DNA of 64,000 nucleotides from Patescibacteria group bacterium (GTDB taxonomy: Bacteria > Patescibacteriota > Patescibacteriia > JAQUQO01), in NCBI GenBank assembly GCA_028716045.1, contig JAQUQO010000001.1, positions 384,942 through 448,941 on the forward strand, written 5' to 3'. The notes below the pieces were generated by a model. It searched no databases and had not been told where the DNA came from. It saw only the letters and a program-made list of their open reading frames with translations. The position numbers and the translations under genes are program-made. This document shows positions 16,813 through 64,000 of this stretch, piece after piece; position 1 is the stretch's first letter, and the number at the start of each line of letters is the position of its first letter.

Positions 16813-16873
16813 CCGCGCCCGCAACGCCTCGCAAGCTCGGCTTGCGATGGCGGGCGGAAAAATAAAAACAAAA

Positions 16874-51381: not shown

Positions 51382-51454
51382 CGGGCTGTAGCGCAGTTGG
51401 TAGCGCGCATCGTTCGGGACGATGAGGCCGGAGGTTCAAGTCCTCTCAGCCCGA
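51382..51454 (+). tRNA. tRNA-Pro (anticodon CGG), CCA not encoded
   Basis: Acceptor CGGGCTG/CAGCCCG, anticodon loop TTCGGGA, T-arm GGAGG-TTCAAGT-CCTCT. Confidence 0.85.
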
Positions 51455-51543
51455 CTGGGTCAAAAGTTAACAAAATAAAATGTCCCGCTCTATTGGGGCG
51501 ATCGGAGGTTTCCGCCAAAGGCGGATCAGGTCGAATGACCTGA

Positions 51544-51564
51544 CAAGTCCTCTCAGCCCGACCA
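51544..51564 (+). repeat. Direct repeat of the tRNA-Pro 3' end (caagtcctctcagcccga) followed by CCA
   Basis: An 18-nt exact copy of tRNA positions 56-73 lies 90 bp downstream of the gene. This copy is followed by CCA, whereas the gene is not. Confidence 0.6.
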
Positions 51565-60439: not shown

Positions 60440-62443
60440 CTAATTACCCTGATTAGGTTGTGGCGGTTGTTGGGGCTGATTAGGTGGCGCGGGCGGGCTG
60501 GGCTGTGTGGGTTGAGTTGGCGGCGTGGGCTGGGCGGGCGGAGTTGGTTGGGTCGGTAATGTTGGCTGGCTGGGCGGAGTCGGCTTAGCGGGTTTAGCGG
60601 GCTGCTCTGACTCTCCGGACTGCGTCGGTTTAGCGGGCTTACTAGGTTTAGTGGGCTGTTCGGGCGGAGTCGGTGGCGTTGGTTGACCGGATTCTGTGGA
60701 TGGAACGGGTTGAGTGGTCTGTTCCGGTTTGACGGGCTTGGCCGCCTTTTGACAGTTCATTACACAAACATCCTTGTTAGTCGTACAGGCGGAGCTTTTC
60801 GCGGTAACTAGAGCGTGACAAGCGGTCTCTGCTGAATCGCATACCCTGGCAATACACGCACGCATCACTTCTGCTGTCGAACGGTTACCTTCAGCGTCTT
60901 TGGTCTCACATGTTACTTCTCTGCAATACTGTCCTTGTGAACGGCAAGCCTCGGTCTCCACACTTAGTGCAGAGATACAATCTCTTCCAGTTAATTCACA
61001 ATCTTCAATACACTTCACCGGATTGGGATTAGTATTCTGACCTTGTCCTCCTCCTTGACCAGAACCCGGATTAAAACCCTCGCCTTGATTGGGACCGCTA
61101 TTACTCGGACCACCATCTTGGCCCCCGCCGCCTTGTCCCTGCTCTCGATCACCTTGACTACCTTGATTTTGTCCATCTTGACCCTCTGGACGAGCCGGAG
61201 GAATTGGGGTAAATGATTCAAAACAAGTTTTCATTTGTGTGCCGATGGTTGGGTTGGGCATCACGCTTCCGCTTTTTAATTTTTCAATGGTATCTGCGCC
61301 TAAAGAGGAAGTCAGACAAACCGAAATTTCCGCCGGCATATTATTAAGAGATTCTTGTATTTTTTGTTGGCCTTCCTGCATGGTCTTCTGGTCTTCCTCG
61401 GAAATCATGCCATTGTCTTTGGCAAAATTGAAACAAACTTCGGAATTGGCCGCGGCGTTGCAAAAGGCGTCGCATTCTTCCTTAGTTTTACATCCGCCGG
61501 GACCTTCACCGCCGGTTTTCATGGCCGCTTGCGCTTCATCGGTAGTCATTGCTCCCGTGGCCTCGGCAAATTTAACGCATTCTTCAAAATGGGCCTCTTG
61601 AGAACAATAATCCTGGCATCCCTCTTCGCCGCAGCCGGGGAGCTCGACTCCTTCTTCCATGGCATTAAGCATTTTTTGCAATTGTCTCATCTTTGGAGGA
61701 GATAGGATTCCCGCTGTTGTAGCAAAACTTCCGCATTCGGCCGCGTGTTCCGAACCTTCGCGACAATAAACTTCACATTCAGTACCATGACACGGAGGCA
61801 CGGCGCCATTTTTTATGGCGGTTAAAACTTTTCGCGCGTTTTCCTGCTCCGCGGCCGGCAAAATTCCGGCTTCGGTGCCGAAGTTTATGCACGCTTCCAT
61901 GCCTTTGGCGGACGCGCAATAATTTTCACAATCTTTCCGGCCGGTGCAGCTTAAGGGCTTAACGCCGCTTTTAACGGCGGTGACAATCTTCTTAGCTTCT
62001 TGTAAATCTTCTTCGGGCAGTAACTCGTTTTTCTCCGCGAAAGCAACGCAGGTTTCCAGATTGTCTTTGTTATCGCAATAATCCTCGCAAGCGTCCGTTC
62101 CCTGGCATTCGCCGGGGCCGGTCATGCCGACGGCCTGGAACTTTTTGGCCGCGGATACCTCTTCCGCCTTCATTAAGCCGTGGTCTTCGCCGAAGGCGAG
62201 ACAGACATCGGTATTCTTCGTCTCATTGCAAAAAACTTTGCAATCTTCCCTGTCTTTGCAATTTCCCAATTCCTTGACGGGATACTGAACGCTTTCCACG
62301 GCGGTTTGATTTTGAGCTTGAGGTGTCTCTGTTTTAACCTCTTCTTGCGCCATTGCGAATGAGCCGATGACAAAAACGGAGATGATCGCAAACGAAACTA
62401 CGATTAAAACTCTAAAAATATTTTTGTTCATATTTTTATTCAA
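60440..62443 (-). CDS. Secreted surface protein with six tandem roughly 45-aa four-Cys repeats, a Gly/Gln-rich segment, a second Cys-rich module and a Pro/Thr-rich C-terminal tail
   Basis: Signal peptide. Repeats follow the pattern C-x5-C-x3-C-x9-C...(F/V)(A/G)(E/T)xxG(L/I/M), for example GNCKDREDCKVFCNETKNTDVCLAFGEDHGLM. The tail is PTPPTPPEQPTKPSKPAKP... Confidence 0.6.
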   Translation of the reverse strand: MNKNMNKNIFRVLIVVSFAIISVFVIGSFAMAQEEVKTETPQAQNQTAVESVQYPVKELGNCKDREDCKVFCNETKNTDVCLAFGEDHGLMKAEEVSAAKKFQAVGMTGPGECQGTDACEDYCDNKDNLETCVAFAEKNELLPEEDLQEAKKIVTAVKSGVKPLSCTGRKDCENYCASAKGMEACINFGTEAGILPAAEQENARKVLTAIKNGAVPPCHGTECEVYCREGSEHAAECGSFATTAGILSPPKMRQLQKMLNAMEEGVELPGCGEEGCQDYCSQEAHFEECVKFAEATGAMTTDEAQAAMKTGGEGPGGCKTKEECDAFCNAAANSEVCFNFAKDNGMISEEDQKTMQEGQQKIQESLNNMPAEISVCLTSSLGADTIEKLKSGSVMPNPTIGTQMKTCFESFTPIPPARPEGQDGQNQGSQGDREQGQGGGGQDGGPSNSGPNQGEGFNPGSGQGGGQGQNTNPNPVKCIEDCELTGRDCISALSVETEACRSQGQYCREVTCETKDAEGNRSTAEVMRACIARVCDSAETACHALVTAKSSACTTNKDVCVMNCQKAAKPVKPEQTTQPVPSTESGQPTPPTPPEQPTKPSKPAKPTQSGESEQPAKPAKPTPPSQPTLPTQPTPPAQPTPPTQPTQPSPPAPPNQPQQPPQPNQGN

Positions 62444-62723
62444 AAGGATTAGTTTTTATATTTGAAAAAGGATTGGTATTTTTATACGGATTGGCGTCGG
62501 GAACATCTTCCAACGGATTAATTACTACGGCGTCCATGTCCGGCAAAACGCCCTTGGCCACGCCTTGGTTGATGGATTCGACCGCTTCTTGAATATCCGT
62601 AACCGCTTGTTCGGCTTGTTTGGTAACGGAAGGTTTGTGAAATTTAATCCACAAAAAACAACCTCCTCCGGCCAAGCCCAGGATTAACATCGCCAAAACG
62701 ACGATTAATAATTTTTTGTTCAT
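62436..62723 (-). CDS. Small secreted protein
   Basis: Signal peptide plus a 60-aa mature chain. Confidence 0.4.
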   Translation of the reverse strand: MNKKLLIVVLAMLILGLAGGGCFLWIKFHKPSVTKQAEQAVTDIQEAVESINQGVAKGVLPDMDAVVINPLEDVPDANPYKNTNPFSNIKTNPFE

Positions 62724-62983
62724 ATGGTTTTTTATTTATATGGTCCTTTTATAATTAAATTTATTTAAAAATAAAACATAAACTATTGCTAAAAATGATC
62801 AAGTCACTCCGTAGCTATACTACGCTATTTCATAGCTACGTAGTAGCGACGGATAACCTTAGTGAAGGATGGCTCCCCCGCCACAACTTTTTTCGAACCC
62901 AGTGTTTAAACCGTTTTCTTGCAACATCGAGAATAACGAGTCGATTTTAGGGTTATATAATACCTGTTCGAACTCGTACGTTC

Positions 62984-63060
62984 CAGCTCCGGGACTTGGA
63001 TTCGAACCAAGATAAGCAGCTTCCTCGCCAAAGGCGAGTGCGCCTCGGGCGCAAAAGGCT
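62984..63060 (-). pseudogene. 3' half of a tRNA-Gln(TTG) (from anticodon-loop A37 to the acceptor end) preceded by a roughly 38-nt structured module
   Basis: Minus strand: AGCCTTTTGCGCCCGAGGCGCACTCGCCTTTGGCGAGG then AAGCTGCTTATCTTGGTTCGAATCCAAGTCCCGGAGCTG. The last 39 nt are identical to the 3' half of the intact tRNA at 63073-63143. Confidence 0.7.
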
Positions 63061-63072
63061 TTGTCAGCACAG

Positions 63073-63143
63073 CTCCGGGACTTGGATTCGAACCAAGATA
63101 AGCAGCTTCAAAGGCTGCTGTCCTACCATTAGACGATCCCGGA
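63073..63143 (-). tRNA. tRNA-Gln (anticodon TTG), CCA not encoded; 11-nt leader and trailer are perfectly complementary
   Basis: TCCGGGA...GCAGC-CTTTGAA-GCTGC...CTTGG-TTCGAAT-CCAAG-TCCCGGA-G. Flanks are TGTCAGCACAGC (5') and CTGTGCTGACA (3'). Confidence 0.85.
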
Positions 63144-63156
63144 GCTGTGCTGACAA

Positions 63157-63396
63157 TTATTTCAAAATTTGATCTAAAAATTTTCTCCCTTGCCCTGACT
63201 TCAAAAATTTTTCTCTTTGCATGGCCTCTGCCCGCGTTAGATAATCTTCTCTATAAATTAGTTGCCACGGACGATGTCCTTTAGTAAATCTATAATCGCC
63301 CTTATTGTGACGCCGCAATCTCTCGCCGGCATCTTTTCCACTCCCGACATAACGTTTGCCATCTTTCAAACTTTTTAAAACGTAGGTTTGATACAT
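63157..63396 (-). CDS. GIY-YIG family nuclease (stand-alone, 79 aa)
   Basis: MYQTYVLKS...GKRYVGSG...RLRRHNKG...LIYRE...REKFLK shows the GIY-YIG catalytic core pattern (Y..Y.G...R...H...E). Confidence 0.8.
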   Translation of the reverse strand: MYQTYVLKSLKDGKRYVGSGKDAGERLRRHNKGDYRFTKGHRPWQLIYREDYLTRAEAMQREKFLKSGQGRKFLDQILK

Positions 63397-63410
63397 ATCA
63401 ATCTTATGGG

Positions 63411-63530
63411 TCGCTTCCTCGCCAGAGACGAGTGCGCCGAAGGCGCAAAAGGCTGCTGTCCTACCACATTTAGCCTGCCCGCGGTCGCGGGACGCGGCCA
63501 GGGACGATTCCGGAAGAAATAACCAACGGC
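63411..63530 (-). pseudogene. Diverged 5' half of tRNA-Gln(TTG) (acceptor to anticodon U35, with about 30-nt insertion in the D-loop) fused to a second copy of the 38-nt structured module
   Basis: Minus strand: TCCGGAATCGTC[CCTGGCCGCGTCCCGCGACCGCGGGCAGG]CTAAATGTGGTAGGACAGCAGCCTTT then TGCGCCTTCGGCGCACTCGTCTCTGGCGAGGAAGC, running directly into the GIY-YIG ORF. Confidence 0.6.
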
Positions 63531-63544
63531 TGACAGCTGCTATT

Positions 63545-63952
63545 TTATATCTTTTTTAACGCTTTGTCAATCGCTTCGTTTACCAAAAAATCAGCATCTT
63601 TGTTATCTTCTCGATAGATATGCTTAAAGGTGACTTTTTTAAAGCCCATGGTCAGATTCCAAACTTTCACAAACAACGGTGCCAAATCTTTGTCTTTTAC
63701 TTTATATTCCCTGTTCATCTGTTTAGCCACCAATTCGCTGTCCAAAAAACATTCCACTTCCACGGCTTTTAATTCTTTGGCTTTTTCTAAACCAAAAATC
63801 AGCGCTTTATATTCCGCTTGGTTATTAGTCGTTTCTCCGATATATTTCCCCGCTGACCAAAGGACTTTTTTTAAATCTTTTATTACCGCCCCAATTCCTG
63901 CCGGCCCCGGATTACCTCGCGCCCCGCCATCGGTATATACTTTTAATTTCAT
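63545..63952 (-). CDS. rnhA: Ribonuclease HI
   Basis: VYTDGGARGNPGPAGIGAV...TNNQAEYKALIFGLE...DN are the RNase H catalytic DEDD residues and context. Confidence 0.9.
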   Translation of the reverse strand: MKLKVYTDGGARGNPGPAGIGAVIKDLKKVLWSAGKYIGETTNNQAEYKALIFGLEKAKELKAVEVECFLDSELVAKQMNREYKVKDKDLAPLFVKVWNLTMGFKKVTFKHIYREDNKDADFLVNEAIDKALKKI

Positions 63953-64000
63953 ATACTTTCGTATTATATTTTTTGTATATCCACCATCTTGAATTGCAAT

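What the first reader, a model, noticed from the sequence alone, without database searches (positions are those of the whole stretch)
62984..63530. tRNA-Gln(TTG) locus with intact gene, GIY-YIG nuclease and flanking half-tRNA pseudo-copies joined to a repeated anticodon-loop module: intron or homing-element footprint
Read 5' to 3' on the minus strand, the locus contains, in order: (1) A diverged 5' half tRNA (acceptor through CCUUU of the anticodon loop, with a roughly 30-nt D-loop insertion). (2) A 38-nt structured module UGCGCC-UUCG-GCGCACUCG-UCUC-UGGCGAGGAAGC. (3) A 79-aa GIY-YIG nuclease ORF. (4) A complete tRNA-Gln(TTG). (5) A second copy of the module, UUUUGCGCC-CGAG-GCGCACUCGCC-UUU-GGCGAGG, whose two hairpins differ by compensatory changes. 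(6) A perfect copy of the 3' half of the tRNA starting exactly at anticodon-loop A37. The break between halves falls in the anticodon loop after U35/before G36. The upstream exon ends in U and the inserted module ends in G, the same boundary nucleotides as group-I intron splice sites. Possible readings: a tRNA-Gln gene interrupted by an intron-like mobile element that encodes a GIY-YIG homing endonuclease and carries its own replacement tRNA, or a decayed duplicate created by endonuclease-driven gene conversion. The two module copies with compensatory substitutions argue the 38-nt module is a functional RNA structure, for example a mini-intron or ribozyme fragment, or the nuclease recognition site.
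Basis: partly seen in the sequence, partly recalled or inferred. Interest (0 to 1): 0.8.

Follow-up and report, generated by a model that had tools for sequence, protein, structure and literature searches.

The report
tRNA-splitting nuclease cassette with spare tRNA
A tRNA-Gln gene of a Patescibacteria (CPR) bacterium has been split in its anticodon loop by a 424-bp selfish cassette that carries a tiny GIY-YIG nuclease gene and its own complete replacement tRNA, one example of a widespread element family for which I found no published description.

Summary
On the minus strand lie, in order:
- a decayed 5' half of tRNA-Gln(UUG)
- a 30-nt double-hairpin module
- a 79-aa GIY-YIG ORF
- an intact tRNA-Gln(UUG) clamped by a 13-bp leader/trailer stem
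- a second module
- an exact 3' half.

It is not an intron. There is no ribozyme core and no room for one.

Comparative data support a mobile cassette.
- In 68 of 77 assessable relatives found by protein alone, the ORF abuts a same-strand tRNA.
- Broken copies of that tRNA flank the unit, with breaks in the anticodon, T or D loop.
- In the anticodon- and T-loop classes the same module sits in the break, at TTY^GAA.
- In L097 and L018, and in ORF-less L114 and L084, the outer halves belong to a different tRNA-Gln sequence than the inner gene. The inner tRNA therefore came in with the cassette.

The module covaries across 67 distinct copies. It also occurs alone:
- in an otherwise complete tRNA-Gln (L107)
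- in-frame in dnaN, where a 93%-identical ortholog has a clean empty site.

The nuclease is a bare catalytic domain closest to UPF0213 and Slx1.

Break-and-repair spread driven by this nuclease is inferred, not shown. No prior description was found.

The parts
63542..63570 (-). Sigma-70-like promoter (TTGACA, 17-nt spacer, TAAAAT) just upstream of the outer 5' half. Presumed promoter of the resident tRNA gene, now driving the whole cassette.
   Evidence: 11 of 12 consensus matches. This is a consensus match only; its function is inferred.
63448..63514 (-). Outer (resident) 5' half of tRNA-Gln(UUG), positions 1-35, decayed. It has a G6->A change and a 33-nt GC-rich insertion in the D region (about 63469-63501).
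   Evidence: D3: exact 19-nt copy at 63448-63466; alignment with the inner tRNA.
63418..63447 (-). Module A: 30-nt double hairpin TGCGCC-TTC-GGCGCA / CTCGTC-TCT-GGCGAG, inserted exactly between U35 and G36.
   Evidence: D2; fold -15.2 kcal/mol, z = -2.8; covariation across 67 distinct copies.
63413..63417 (-). GAAGC: tRNA positions 36-40 retained after module A, then unrelated sequence up to the ATG. Together with the 3' arm of hairpin 2 it forms a purine-rich GAGGAAG stretch.
   Evidence: the same short tRNA continuation follows the module in most related loci.
63157..63396 (-). GIY-YIG nuclease ORF, 79 aa, catalytic domain only.
   Evidence: PF01541, E = 1e-12; 26 invariant residues, including Y5, Y16, R26, H30, N31, E62; UPF0213 and SLX1; model pLDDT 95; best folds UPF0213, Slx1, I-TevI catalytic domain.
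63144..63156 (-). Leader arm TTGTCAGCACAGC. It pairs with the trailer arm and extends the acceptor stem by 13 bp.
   Evidence: I1: 20-nt arms, 100% complementary; z = -9.2; such stems occur only at cassette tRNAs.
63072..63143 (-). Inner, intact tRNA-Gln(UUG): the working gene and the cassette's replacement copy.
   Evidence: ARAGORN; Rfam RF00005, 65.2 bits, E = 1.7e-13.
63061..63073 (-). Trailer arm GCTGTGCTGACAA. It starts at the discriminator G73 and so overlaps the tRNA call by 2 nt.
   Evidence: I1.
63054..63060 (-). AGCCTTT: tRNA positions 29-35 retained in front of module B.
   Evidence: (D2) and 55: the same short 5' flank occurs in other 3'-type copies.
63024..63053 (-). Module B: TGCGCC-CGA-GGCGCA / CTCGCC-TTT-GGCGAG.
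   Evidence: fold -17.9 kcal/mol, z = -3.7.
62984..63023 (-). Outer (resident) 3' half of tRNA-Gln(UUG), from G36 to 2 nt beyond the gene. It is an exact 40-nt copy of the inner tRNA.
   Evidence: D1, 100% identity, spacing 86; blastn 38/38.

Best explanation
The locus is a resident tRNA-Gln(UUG) gene that a 424-bp selfish cassette has split between U35 and G36.

The cassette consists of:
- a 30-nt double-hairpin module
- a 79-aa GIY-YIG nuclease gene (a bare catalytic domain of the UPF0213/Slx1 type)
- a complete replacement tRNA-Gln(UUG), held in a 20-bp helix by a complementary leader and trailer
- a second copy of the module.

The outer half-tRNAs are dead remains of the interrupted gene. 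The inner tRNA is the working one.

Shown:
- the architecture
- its recurrence across many Patescibacteria
- the loop-specific breakpoints
- the structural constraint on the module
- the foreign origin of the inner tRNA in several relatives
- the insertion of the module alone at a clean TTY^GAR site in dnaN.

Inferred:
- The whole unit is transcribed from the old tRNA promoter. The leader/trailer helix lets the tRNA be cut out of the long transcript.
- The nuclease breaks DNA at TTY^GAR sites in tRNA stem-loops.
- The break is repaired by copying from a cassette-bearing template through the tRNA-half homologies (synthesis-dependent strand annealing). Depending on where the new strand re-anneals, this yields two-sided copies, one-sided copies, ORF-less fragments and tandem arrays.
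- The module in the break destroys the target site.
- Recombination between the two module repeats would delete the ORF and the inner tRNA and leave only a module-interrupted tRNA. The cassette would therefore be hard to lose.
For: 1. Tight ORF-tRNA linkage. Of 80 loci found by protein similarity alone, 68 of 77 assessable have a same-strand tRNA directly beside the ORF: 62 just downstream and 6 just upstream.

2. Nuclease lineages track their targets. All 20 tRNA-adjacent ORFs at least 65% identical to the window ORF sit at tRNA-Gln(UUG). More distant ones sit at Gln-CUG, Asn, Tyr, Lys, Ser, Ala, Ile, Phe, Pro or Met.

3. Broken copies of the adjacent tRNA flank the unit, with class-specific breakpoints: 34|35 by ARAGORN count (= U35|G36) for Gln-UUG, 54-56 (T loop) for Gln-CUG, Asn, Tyr and Lys, and about 17 (D loop) for Phe, Pro, Met and Ser.

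4. The same 30-nt module fills the break at CCTTT^GAAGC (48 distinct contexts) and at GGTTC^GAATCC (24 contexts). Across 67 distinct copies, 99.8% of cells are paired and three pairs covary: GC/CG 52:14, CG/UA 49:18, UA/CG 44:22. No shuffle out of 500 reaches the observed covariation score.

5. The replacement tRNA is imported.
- L097: outer TCGGGGA..AGGAGC|GCTCCT..TCCCCGA halves pair with each other and differ from inner TGCGGGA... (29/37 identity).
- L018: outer halves are a different tRNA-Gln type from the inner gene.
- L114 and L084: ORF-less nested cases; in L084 the outer gene resembles the native gene of relative L085.
- The inner leader is conserved between the window and L013, while the outer leaders differ.

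6. A search with the module pattern alone found 29 metagenome loci. Of these, 21 have the ORF next to the module. The rest look like derivatives: a solo module in a full-length tRNA (L107), ORF-less cassettes (L105, L114), and tRNA plus 3'-type copies (L095, L111).

7. Signs of an endonuclease life cycle: ORFs with in-frame stops or truncated matches (L013, L023, L079, L094), ORF-less copies, tandem ORF duplications (L026, L065, L077, L100), and tandem arrays of half-tRNA + module units (L001, L006, L007, L088, L095).

8. The module inserts at the DNA level without a target duplication. dnaN of L093 and L115 carries it in-frame (+10 aa). The 93%-identical ortholog L118 has the empty site GGCTTTC|GAGGGT. 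The 77%-identical ortholog L119 has a 30/30-identical module amid diverged flanks.

9. The protein is a confident bare GIY-YIG fold nearest UPF0213 and the structure-specific nuclease Slx1, with the catalytic residues invariant.

10. A promoter-like site lies upstream of the outer 5' half. Leader/trailer stems of at least 6 bp occur at 29 tRNAs, 28 of them with the ORF or tRNA-fragment copies directly beside them; the rest of the tRNAs extend by 0-5 bp.
Against: - No cleavage activity or target has been shown for any member. At 79 aa the protein has no DNA-binding domain, so how it would find TTY^GAR sites is unknown.
- The inner tRNA keeps an intact copy of the supposed target, so the cassette is not obviously immune to its own nuclease. 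I read the tandem arrays as the trace of such self-cutting, but that is an interpretation.
- The origin of the module, and how 30 nt are copied into dnaN with only about 6-nt flanking matches, are unexplained.
- In the window the outer and inner tRNAs are nearly identical: the 3' half is 40/40, and the outer leader even shares TGTCAGC with the inner one. An in-situ duplication cannot be excluded for this particular locus.
- None of the four syntenic loci examined shows a simple empty tRNA-Gln site.
- The module also exists without a nearby nuclease gene: the window tRNA-Pro fragment and L002.
- Only 21 of 78 ORF-adjacent tRNAs have the long leader/trailer stem.
Confidence: 0.65

Rival explanations
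1. Intron. The outer halves are the exons of a functional tRNA-Gln. Everything between them, or the 30-nt module alone, is removed from the RNA by self-splicing (group I) or by an unknown enzyme.
For: - The break is at 35/36, the site where genuine group I introns sit in Patescibacteria tRNA-Asn and tRNA-Asp (PMC13011429).
- The 5' exon ends in U and the insert ends in G.
- All insertions sit in tRNA loops and are hairpin-shaped, as expected if a cloverleaf had to be kept.
- That paper notes that some divergent introns escape RF00028.
Against: - No Rfam family other than tRNA matches credibly at E <= 10.
- About 394 of the 424 nt are the ORF, the tRNA, the two modules and the leader/trailer stem, so there is no room for a P3-P9 core.
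- By a strict pattern only 6 of 36 assessable Gln-UUG loci have a module on both sides.
- The outer 5' half has an acceptor mismatch and a 33-nt insertion.
- An intact tRNA-Gln(UUG) is present in the ORF-bearing Gln-UUG loci that reach far enough.
- The same module follows C56 in T loops, which is not a group I 5' splice site.
- The module occurs in-frame in dnaN and antisense in a Clp-like gene, where it is evidently translated or tolerated rather than spliced.
- The module folds on itself and does not form a bulge-helix-bulge with the exons.
Confidence: 0.04
2. Local debris with no mobility. The GIY-YIG gene is a vertically inherited housekeeping gene co-transcribed with tRNAs. The half-tRNAs and hairpins are leftovers of slippage, unequal crossing-over and gene conversion in a repeat-prone region.
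For: - In the window the inner and outer sequences are almost identical and the leaders partly match.
- In L001, L002, L004 and L012 the 5' copy includes the same leader as the intact gene.
- Tandem arrays show active local recombination.
Against: - Related ORFs sit at more than 12 different tRNA species. One MAG has them at two tRNAs (PCRZ01: L049 Phe, L060 Gln-CUG).
- Outer and inner tRNAs differ in L018, L084, L097 and L114.
- Syntenic loci of relatives differ in content: ORF present, a different GIY-YIG subfamily, ORF absent, or no tRNA.
- Breakpoints are loop-precise and carry the same conserved module in unrelated tRNAs.
- The module shows presence/absence polymorphism in dnaN.
Confidence: 0.12
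3. Mobile, but not by this nuclease. The 30-nt module is a REP/PATE-like hairpin element, or a recombination site, moved by a trans-acting enzyme encoded elsewhere (for example an HUH transposase or a recombinase). The GIY-YIG ORF and the tRNA are cargo trapped between two module copies.
For: - Modules occur without a nearby ORF: the window tRNA-Pro fragment, L002, and dnaN and the Clp-like gene.
- The cassette is bounded by direct module repeats, like att sites or element ends (D2).
- Insertion without target duplication next to a short specific sequence resembles IS200/IS605 behaviour (established knowledge, not tested here).
- The 79-aa protein lacks any DNA-recognition domain.
Against: - ORF and module are tightly linked in both directions: 21 of 29 module-found loci have the ORF, and a module lies 10-25 nt before the ATG in most Gln-UUG loci.
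- No other conserved gene accompanies the loci.
- Nuclease lineages track the tRNA type and the loop.
- A nuclease is what a break-and-copy element needs.
Confidence: 0.15
4. Assembly artefact. The half-copies come from mis-joined short reads across tRNA repeats.
For: - Exact 40-nt and 19-nt repeats lie within 400 bp.
- L083 breaks inside the tRNA and ends in tRNA-Glu-like sequence, so assemblers do struggle here.
- L001 and L006 contain N gaps.
Against: - The left two-thirds is identical in an independent assembly.
- The same ordered architecture, with different sequences, recurs in dozens of unrelated assemblies from NCBI, JGI, ENA and Logan.
- The modules differ at 5 of 42 positions, which a repeat collapse would not create.
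Confidence: 0.02

Closest known systems
Free-standing GIY-YIG homing endonuclease genes of T4-like phages (Seg family; SegB lies in the T4 tRNA gene cluster). From my own knowledge, not tested here.
   Same: A GIY-YIG nuclease gene sits next to tRNA genes. Spread is presumed to occur by a double-strand break followed by copying of the nuclease gene together with flanking markers. Decay and patchy distribution are also shared.
   Different: Seg proteins are about 200 aa or more and have DNA-binding domains; this protein is 79 aa of catalytic domain only. Seg genes do not split their target, do not carry a whole replacement gene and have no hairpin boundary module. The hosts here are cellular CPR genomes, not phages: only 2 weak viral hits, neither near a tRNA.
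Group I introns at position 35/36 of Patescibacteria tRNA genes (Nakagawa et al. 2026, PMC13011429)
   Same: Same phylum and the same 35/36 position in the anticodon loop. The 5' flank ends in U and the insert ends in G. Some of those introns carry homing endonuclease genes (HNH type).
   Different: Those introns are 184-894 nt ribozymes detected by covariance models and shown to self-splice. They sit in Asn, Asp, Met, Phe, Tyr and Thr genes, with no GIY-YIG and no Gln. Here there is no ribozyme core, a complete tRNA lies inside the insert, and the same module is used in T loops and in a protein gene.
Integrative elements that target tRNA genes and restore the displaced part (phages, genomic islands; crossover in the anticodon or T loop). 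From my own knowledge.
   Same: An insertion inside a tRNA gene is compensated by an element-borne copy. A displaced tRNA fragment is left as a direct repeat, and the breakpoints lie in the anticodon or T loop.
   Different: There is no integrase. The element is 424 bp rather than kilobases. A whole tRNA with its own leader and trailer is supplied, and fragments are left on both sides. A 30-nt hairpin module sits in the break.
Small palindromic mobile repeats: REP/BIME with RAYT transposases, IS200/IS605-derived PATEs, and Rickettsia palindromic elements. From my own knowledge.
   Same: These are short GC-rich hairpin units inserted at specific short sequences without target duplication. In-frame insertion into protein-coding genes (Rickettsia elements) matches the dnaN case.
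   Different: At 30 nt the module is smaller than any of these. Copy number is low: two canonical copies in 64 kb. It is linked to a GIY-YIG nuclease rather than an HUH transposase and is aimed mainly at tRNA loops.
UPF0213 (YhbQ / BH0048 / EF2693) proteins and the Slx1 nuclease domain
   Same: These are the best sequence and fold matches. They are the same minimal GIY-YIG domain. Slx1 cuts branched and stem-loop DNA, which would suit cutting at extruded tRNA-gene stem-loops (inference).
   Different: Identity is only 24-35%. Slx1 has an added RING domain and an Slx4 partner. No mobile-element role or tRNA linkage is described for UPF0213 as far as I could find.
Archaeal split and multi-intron tRNA genes (Nanoarchaeum, Thermoproteales). 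From my own knowledge.
   Same: tRNA genes are broken in loops, with GC-rich sequence at the break, and insertions occur in the D, anticodon and T loops.
   Different: Those pieces are joined or spliced through bulge-helix-bulge motifs and are the only gene copies. Here no such motif forms, the modules are direct repeats, and an intact gene is present.

Membership tests
Group I intron | Conserved catalytic core (P3-P9) detectable by covariance model | tested here: not met
   cmscan of 62300-64000 at E <= 10 gives no Intron_gpI hit. Only about 30 nt between the halves are not accounted for by the ORF, tRNA, modules or stem.
Group I intron | [quoted passage not shown] | tested here: met
   ...CCTTT | TGCGCC...GGCGAG | GAAGC. 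This is not diagnostic, because the same module follows C56 in T loops.
Group I intron | Exons are joined in RNA (splicing) | not testable with these tools
   Needs tRNA-seq, RT-PCR or in vitro splicing.
GIY-YIG nuclease superfamily | Domain match above the curated threshold | tested here: met
   PF01541, 48.5 bits against a cut-off of 22.6.
GIY-YIG nuclease superfamily | Catalytic Tyr, Tyr, Arg, His/Asn and Glu conserved, on the beta-beta-alpha-beta-alpha-alpha fold | tested here: met
   Y5, Y16, R26, H30, N31 and E62 are invariant in 26 sequences. The model has pLDDT 95.4. Top folds are UPF0213, Slx1, I-TevI catalytic domain and UvrC N-terminal domain.
Homing endonuclease gene (free-standing) | Nuclease gene in or beside its presumed target, with patchy presence among relatives | tested here: met
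   68 of 77 loci are beside a tRNA. Syntenic loci L084, L085 and L086 differ in content. ORF-less and disrupted copies exist.
Homing endonuclease gene (free-standing) | Separate DNA-binding domain recognising a long target | tested here: not met
   The whole protein is one 79-aa catalytic domain.
Homing endonuclease gene (free-standing) | Cleaves the cassette-free allele and not the occupied one | not testable with these tools
   Needs a biochemical assay. Note that the inner tRNA retains the intact site.
tRNA-targeting integrative element | Encodes a tyrosine or serine recombinase | tested here: not met
   The only real ORF in the cassette is the GIY-YIG gene. The flanking genes are an RNase H and a 95-aa protein with no Pfam match.
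tRNA-targeting integrative element | Direct repeats of part of the tRNA at both ends, with the gene restored | tested here: met
   Repeats D1, D2 and D3; intact inner tRNA.
Archaeal-type (bulge-helix-bulge) tRNA intron or split tRNA | Exon-intron pairing that forms two 3-nt bulges separated by a 4-bp helix | tested here: not met
   Both hairpins of the module pair within the module. The junction bases lie in a multiloop. Modules A and B are direct repeats, not complements.
REP/BIME or IS200/IS605-type hairpin element | Associated HUH (Y1) transposase | not tested
   None was seen in the called genes of the loci inspected, but whole genomes were not searched.

The most novel reading that the evidence does not exclude
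This is a new class of bacterial mobile element. A bare Slx1/UPF0213-type GIY-YIG nuclease cuts DNA stem-loops at TTY^GAR. It spreads together with a 30-nt double-hairpin module that marks both cassette ends. The module can also spread alone, even in-frame into essential protein genes such as dnaN. The full cassette makes itself indispensable by replacing the essential tRNA gene it destroys: deletion between the module repeats would leave only a dead, module-interrupted tRNA.
Probability: 0.35. Interest if true: 0.9.

Novelty: new variant of a known kind. Interest (0 to 1): 0.8.

Why it matters
- Patescibacteria have tiny genomes, so an insertion into a tRNA gene is expected to be costly. An element that invades such genes yet brings a spare copy is an unusual way to be selfish without being lethal.
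- It explains many odd 'tRNA fragments' in CPR genomes. It also explains many mis-called 100-135-aa 'GIY-YIG' proteins whose ends are translated tRNA or module sequence.
- It gives a first testable function for a member of the large UPF0213 group of minimal GIY-YIG proteins.
- The 30-nt module is a candidate for one of the smallest site-specific insertions known. It can add 10 residues to the sliding clamp.
- For annotation, these loci can hide or duplicate tRNA genes.
- If the nuclease recognises a very short or structural target, it may be of practical interest.

Tried and rejected
1. Group I or other Rfam family: permissive cmscan found only the tRNA. Rejected.

2. My first module search pattern had one base too many and found nothing. 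Corrected.

3. Other GIY-YIG copies or canonical modules elsewhere in the 64-kb window: none. There is only a variant hairpin pair in a tRNA-Pro fragment.

4. A simple empty site at the syntenic RNase H -> tRNA-Gln locus of relatives: not found. L084, L085 and L086 are all different but none is naive.

5. Phage carriage: only two 46%-identical hits in viral contigs, with no tRNA beside them. No PHROG match. NCBIfam gives only a sub-threshold group I intron endonuclease hit, 16.5 bits against a cut-off of 56.

6. Literature: ten full-text searches found no description of GIY-YIG/tRNA cassettes or of this module in CPR bacteria. The library excludes most subscription journals.

7. 'Compensatory changes between the two window modules': checked base by base and rejected.

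8. Split-tRNA trans-splicing and hairpin-end (P-nucleotide) footprints: considered and dropped. The modules are unrelated to their flanks, are direct repeats, and are conserved across genomes.

9. Module as an intrinsic terminator: rejected. No T-run follows it.

10. My strict module pattern undercounts diverged copies (for example L002, L003, L018). The architecture counts are therefore lower bounds.
Full report
**What is in the window**

Read on the minus strand, the region 63570-62984 contains the following:
- A strong sigma-70-like promoter match: TTGACA, 17-nt spacer, TAAAAT (63570-63542).
- A diverged 5' half of tRNA-Gln(UUG) (63514-63448). It has a G6->A change and a 33-nt GC-rich insertion in the D region, but its last 19 nt are an exact copy of the tRNA.
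- A 30-nt module (63447-63418) made of two abutting hairpins, TGCGCC-TTC-GGCGCA and CTCGTC-TCT-GGCGAG.
- Five further tRNA bases, GAAGC.
- A 79-aa ORF (63396-63157).
- A complete tRNA-Gln(UUG) (63143-63072). Its acceptor stem is extended by a perfect 13-bp pairing of leader and trailer, giving a 20-bp helix.
- Seven tRNA bases, AGCCTTT.
- A second module (63053-63024).
- An exact 40-nt copy of the tRNA from G36 to 2 nt beyond its 3' end (63023-62984).

Supporting scores:
- The ORF matches Pfam GIY-YIG at E = 1e-12.
- The tRNA scores 65.2 bits against Rfam tRNA.
- Each module folds as two hairpins (z = -2.8 and -3.7). The clamped tRNA folds with z = -9.2.
- An independent Logan assembly (L083) is identical from the RNase H gene through the 5' half, module and ORF into the tRNA. 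There its contig breaks on the repeat.

Four corrections are listed under the observation check.

**It is not an intron**

- A permissive Rfam scan (E <= 10) of both strands finds only the tRNA.
- The 424 nt between the outer U35 and G36 break down as ORF 240, tRNA 72, modules 60 and leader/trailer about 22. About 30 nt are left, far too little for a ribozyme core.
[quoted passage not shown] They are 184-894-nt ribozymes. That study reports no GIY-YIG genes and no tRNA-Gln introns.

**The ORF family lives beside tRNA genes**

- The ORF has more than 400 close homologs (65-83% identity among the best 120). The source names that exist mostly point to Patescibacteria.
- A scan of one genome per species found 359 relatives. 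I kept 80 loci.
- ARAGORN and a script show a same-strand tRNA directly beside the ORF in 68 of 77 assessable loci: 62 just downstream, often within 1-30 nt, and 6 just upstream.
- All 20 tRNA-adjacent ORFs at least 65% identical to the window ORF sit at tRNA-Gln(UUG). Less similar ones sit at Gln(CUG), Asn, Tyr, Lys, Ser, Ala, Ile, Phe, Pro, Met or Thr.
- Many database 'proteins' of this family are 100-135 aa only because the gene call runs into the tRNA, giving ...GSSNGRTxAFEA...GSNPSP, or starts in the 5' half and module, giving MVGQxPFxP....

**Broken tRNA copies and the module**

Local alignment of each adjacent tRNA to its surroundings shows partial copies with sharp, class-specific ends:
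- Positions 1-34 upstream and 35-72 downstream for Gln(UUG), by ARAGORN count. This equals U35|G36.
- Positions 1-54/56 and 55/57-end (T loop) for Gln(CUG), Asn, Tyr and some Lys.
- Positions 1-17 (D loop) for Phe, Pro, Met and Ser.

In the anticodon and T-loop classes the break holds the same 30-nt unit, T-SCGCC-NNN-GGCGS-A-YYCGCC-NNN-GGCGRR. It lies between CCTTT and GAAGC (48 distinct contexts) or between GGTTC and GAATCC (24 contexts). The D-loop class has a variant, TCCGCC..GGCGGA CCAGCC..GGCTGG, at AGTT^GGT.

On an alignment of 67 distinct copies, 99.8% of cells pair and three pairs covary: GC/CG 52:14, CG/UA 49:18 and UA/CG 44:22. No shuffle out of 500 reaches the observed covariation score, and slid controls collapse to 33-47% paired. 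My search pattern restricted those columns to two letters each but did not force complementarity.

**The inner tRNA comes with the cassette**

- L097 has the window's full architecture. Its outer halves (TCGGGGA...AGGAGC | GCTCCT...TCCCCGA) pair perfectly with each other and differ from the inner tRNA (TGCGGGA...; 29/37 identity in the 3' half).
- L018 is the same: the outer halves are a different tRNA-Gln type, with an AGCCAAGTGGTAAGGC D arm and a CTCCCCAGCCA end.
- In ORF-less L114 the inner gene also differs from the outer one.
- L084 lies at the locus syntenic with the window (LepA-RecJ-RNase H). There an intact tRNA-Gln is nested, with a long flanking stem, in the T loop of an outer pseudo-tRNA. 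That outer gene resembles the native gene of relative L085.
- The inner leader of the window is conserved in L013 (TAATTGTCAGCACAGC against TAATTATCAGCACGGC), while the outer leaders are unrelated.
- Leader/trailer stems of at least 6 bp occur at 29 tRNAs, 28 of them with the ORF or tRNA-fragment copies directly beside them. The other tRNAs in the loci and the window extend by 0-5 bp, nearly all 0-2.
- In the window itself inner and outer are nearly identical. For this single locus a recent event, concerted evolution or in-situ duplication cannot be told apart.

**Derivatives**

A search with the module pattern alone found 29 metagenome loci. Of these, 21 have the ORF next to the module. The others include:
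- a complete tRNA-Gln with a solo module at 35/36 beside an intact gene (L107)
- cassettes without the ORF (L105, L114)
- an intact tRNA followed by module + 3' half, once or in tandem (L111, L095).

By a strict pattern, 36 assessable Gln(UUG) loci divide as follows: 18 with a module only upstream, 7 only downstream, 6 on both sides (the window type) and 5 with neither. Four ORFs are disrupted.

Tandem arrays of [leader + 5' half + module] (L001, L006/L091) or of [module + 3' half + trailer] (L007, L088, L095) occur. So do tandem ORF duplications (L026, L065, L077, L100).

**The module is a DNA-level insertion**

- In two contigs (L093, L115) the module lies in-frame in dnaN and adds SAEGGSASGG.
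- Nearly all of the 120 best orthologs are 10 aa shorter. The 93%-identical one (P0242/L118) has the empty site GGCTTTC|GAGGGT.
- A 77%-identical ortholog (L119) carries a 30/30-identical module among diverged synonymous sites. L120 has a decayed copy.
- There is no target duplication, and the site (GCTTTY^GARG) resembles the tRNA-Gln anticodon arm.
- Another copy lies antisense in the C-terminal tail of a Clp-like ATPase (L109).
- Two T-loop copies are inverted (L041, L048), as expected at the palindromic site TTC^GAA.

**The protein**

- A profile of the family matches UPF0213 proteins (1zg2, 1ywl) and the Slx1 nuclease domain.
- An AlphaFold model (pLDDT 95.4) finds the same proteins, then the I-TevI catalytic domain and the UvrC N-terminal domain.
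- Y5, Y16, R26, H30, N31 and E62 are invariant.
- The protein is a catalytic domain with nothing attached.

**Proposed mechanism (inferred)**

1. The nuclease breaks DNA at TTY^GAR in tRNA stem-loops.
2. The ends invade a cassette-bearing copy through the tRNA-half homologies.
3. Synthesis copies module, ORF and inner tRNA.
4. Re-annealing at the first homologous stretch gives one-sided products, and at the far one gives two-sided products. Out-of-register repair of the still-cleavable inner tRNA gives arrays.
5. The module in the break inactivates that copy of the site.
6. The old tRNA promoter drives everything, and the leader/trailer helix would allow the tRNA to be excised from the long RNA.
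7. Deletion between the two module repeats would leave a dead tRNA, so the cassette is hard to lose.

Open points: no activity has been shown, target recognition by a 79-aa domain is unexplained, and so is the origin of the module and its copying into dnaN with only about 6-nt matches.

**Novelty**

Ten full-text searches found nothing on such cassettes. The parts are familiar: GIY-YIG homing genes, tRNA-targeting elements that restore the gene, and hairpin mini-elements. The combination is not. I rate it a new variant of a known kind, with a substantial chance of being more than that.

Noticed in passing
window 51456-51560 (+): About 55 nt after tRNA-Pro(CGG) (51382-51455) lies a solo 3' fragment of the same tRNA: CGGAGGTT + two hairpins (TCCGCCAAAGGCGGA, TCAGGTCGAATGACCTGA) + CAAGTCCTCTCAGCCCGA. 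It is a T-loop break with a hairpin pair and no nuclease gene nearby.
   Followed up: partly
window 16813-16858 (-); L085 3181-3223: A GC-rich nested hairpin (CCGCCCGCCATCGCAAGCCGAGCTTGCGAGGCGTTGCGGGC...) directly abuts the 5' end of tRNA-Gln(CUG). By eye, an almost identical hairpin abuts tRNA-Gln(UUG) in the relative L085, and a similar one fills the 37/38 break of a 3' fragment there.
   Followed up: no
L093 3959-3998 (-), L115, L119, L120; empty site in L118: The 30-nt module is inserted in-frame in dnaN (+SAEGGSASGG). It is present or absent among close orthologs and is identical in two orthologs only 77% alike.
   Followed up: yes
L109 3101-3140 (-): The module lies antisense inside the C-terminal tail of a Clp-like ATPase ORF.
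   Followed up: partly
L084 2998-3247: An intact tRNA-Gln(UUG) with a long flanking stem is nested in the T loop of an outer pseudo-tRNA-Gln. The outer gene also has a 20-nt palindrome at 35/36. There is no nuclease ORF.
   Followed up: partly
L085 2930-3560: Two GIY-YIG ORFs of a more distant subfamily (...YIGFSNDLRRRIQEH...) flank tRNA-Gln(UUG) at the locus syntenic with the window.
   Followed up: no
L001 2520-2990; L006 1780-2040; L007 1830-2080; L088 10440-10640; L095 12990-13164: Tandem arrays of half-tRNA + module units lie next to the intact tRNA. Several are interrupted by N gaps, so copy numbers are uncertain.
   Followed up: partly
proteins P0004-P0114: Many database GIY-YIG 'proteins' of 100-135 aa owe their N- or C-terminal extensions to translation of the tRNA half, the module or the downstream tRNA. 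These are annotation artefacts.
   Followed up: yes
L083 2860-2874: The independent assembly of the same organism ends inside the tRNA D arm and switches to tRNA-Glu-like sequence (GGACGCCAGGTTCTG). This is probably a repeat-induced chimeric contig end.
   Followed up: no
window 60440-62443 (-): A 667-aa ORF has many repeated Cys-containing units and a long Pro/Gln/Thr-rich tail, about 540 nt downstream of the cassette.
   Followed up: no
L002 3893-4561; L001 2092-2457: Other small selfish-looking genes lie nearby: a T5orf172/MUG113 protein in L002 and a 23S rRNA intervening-sequence protein in L001.
   Followed up: no
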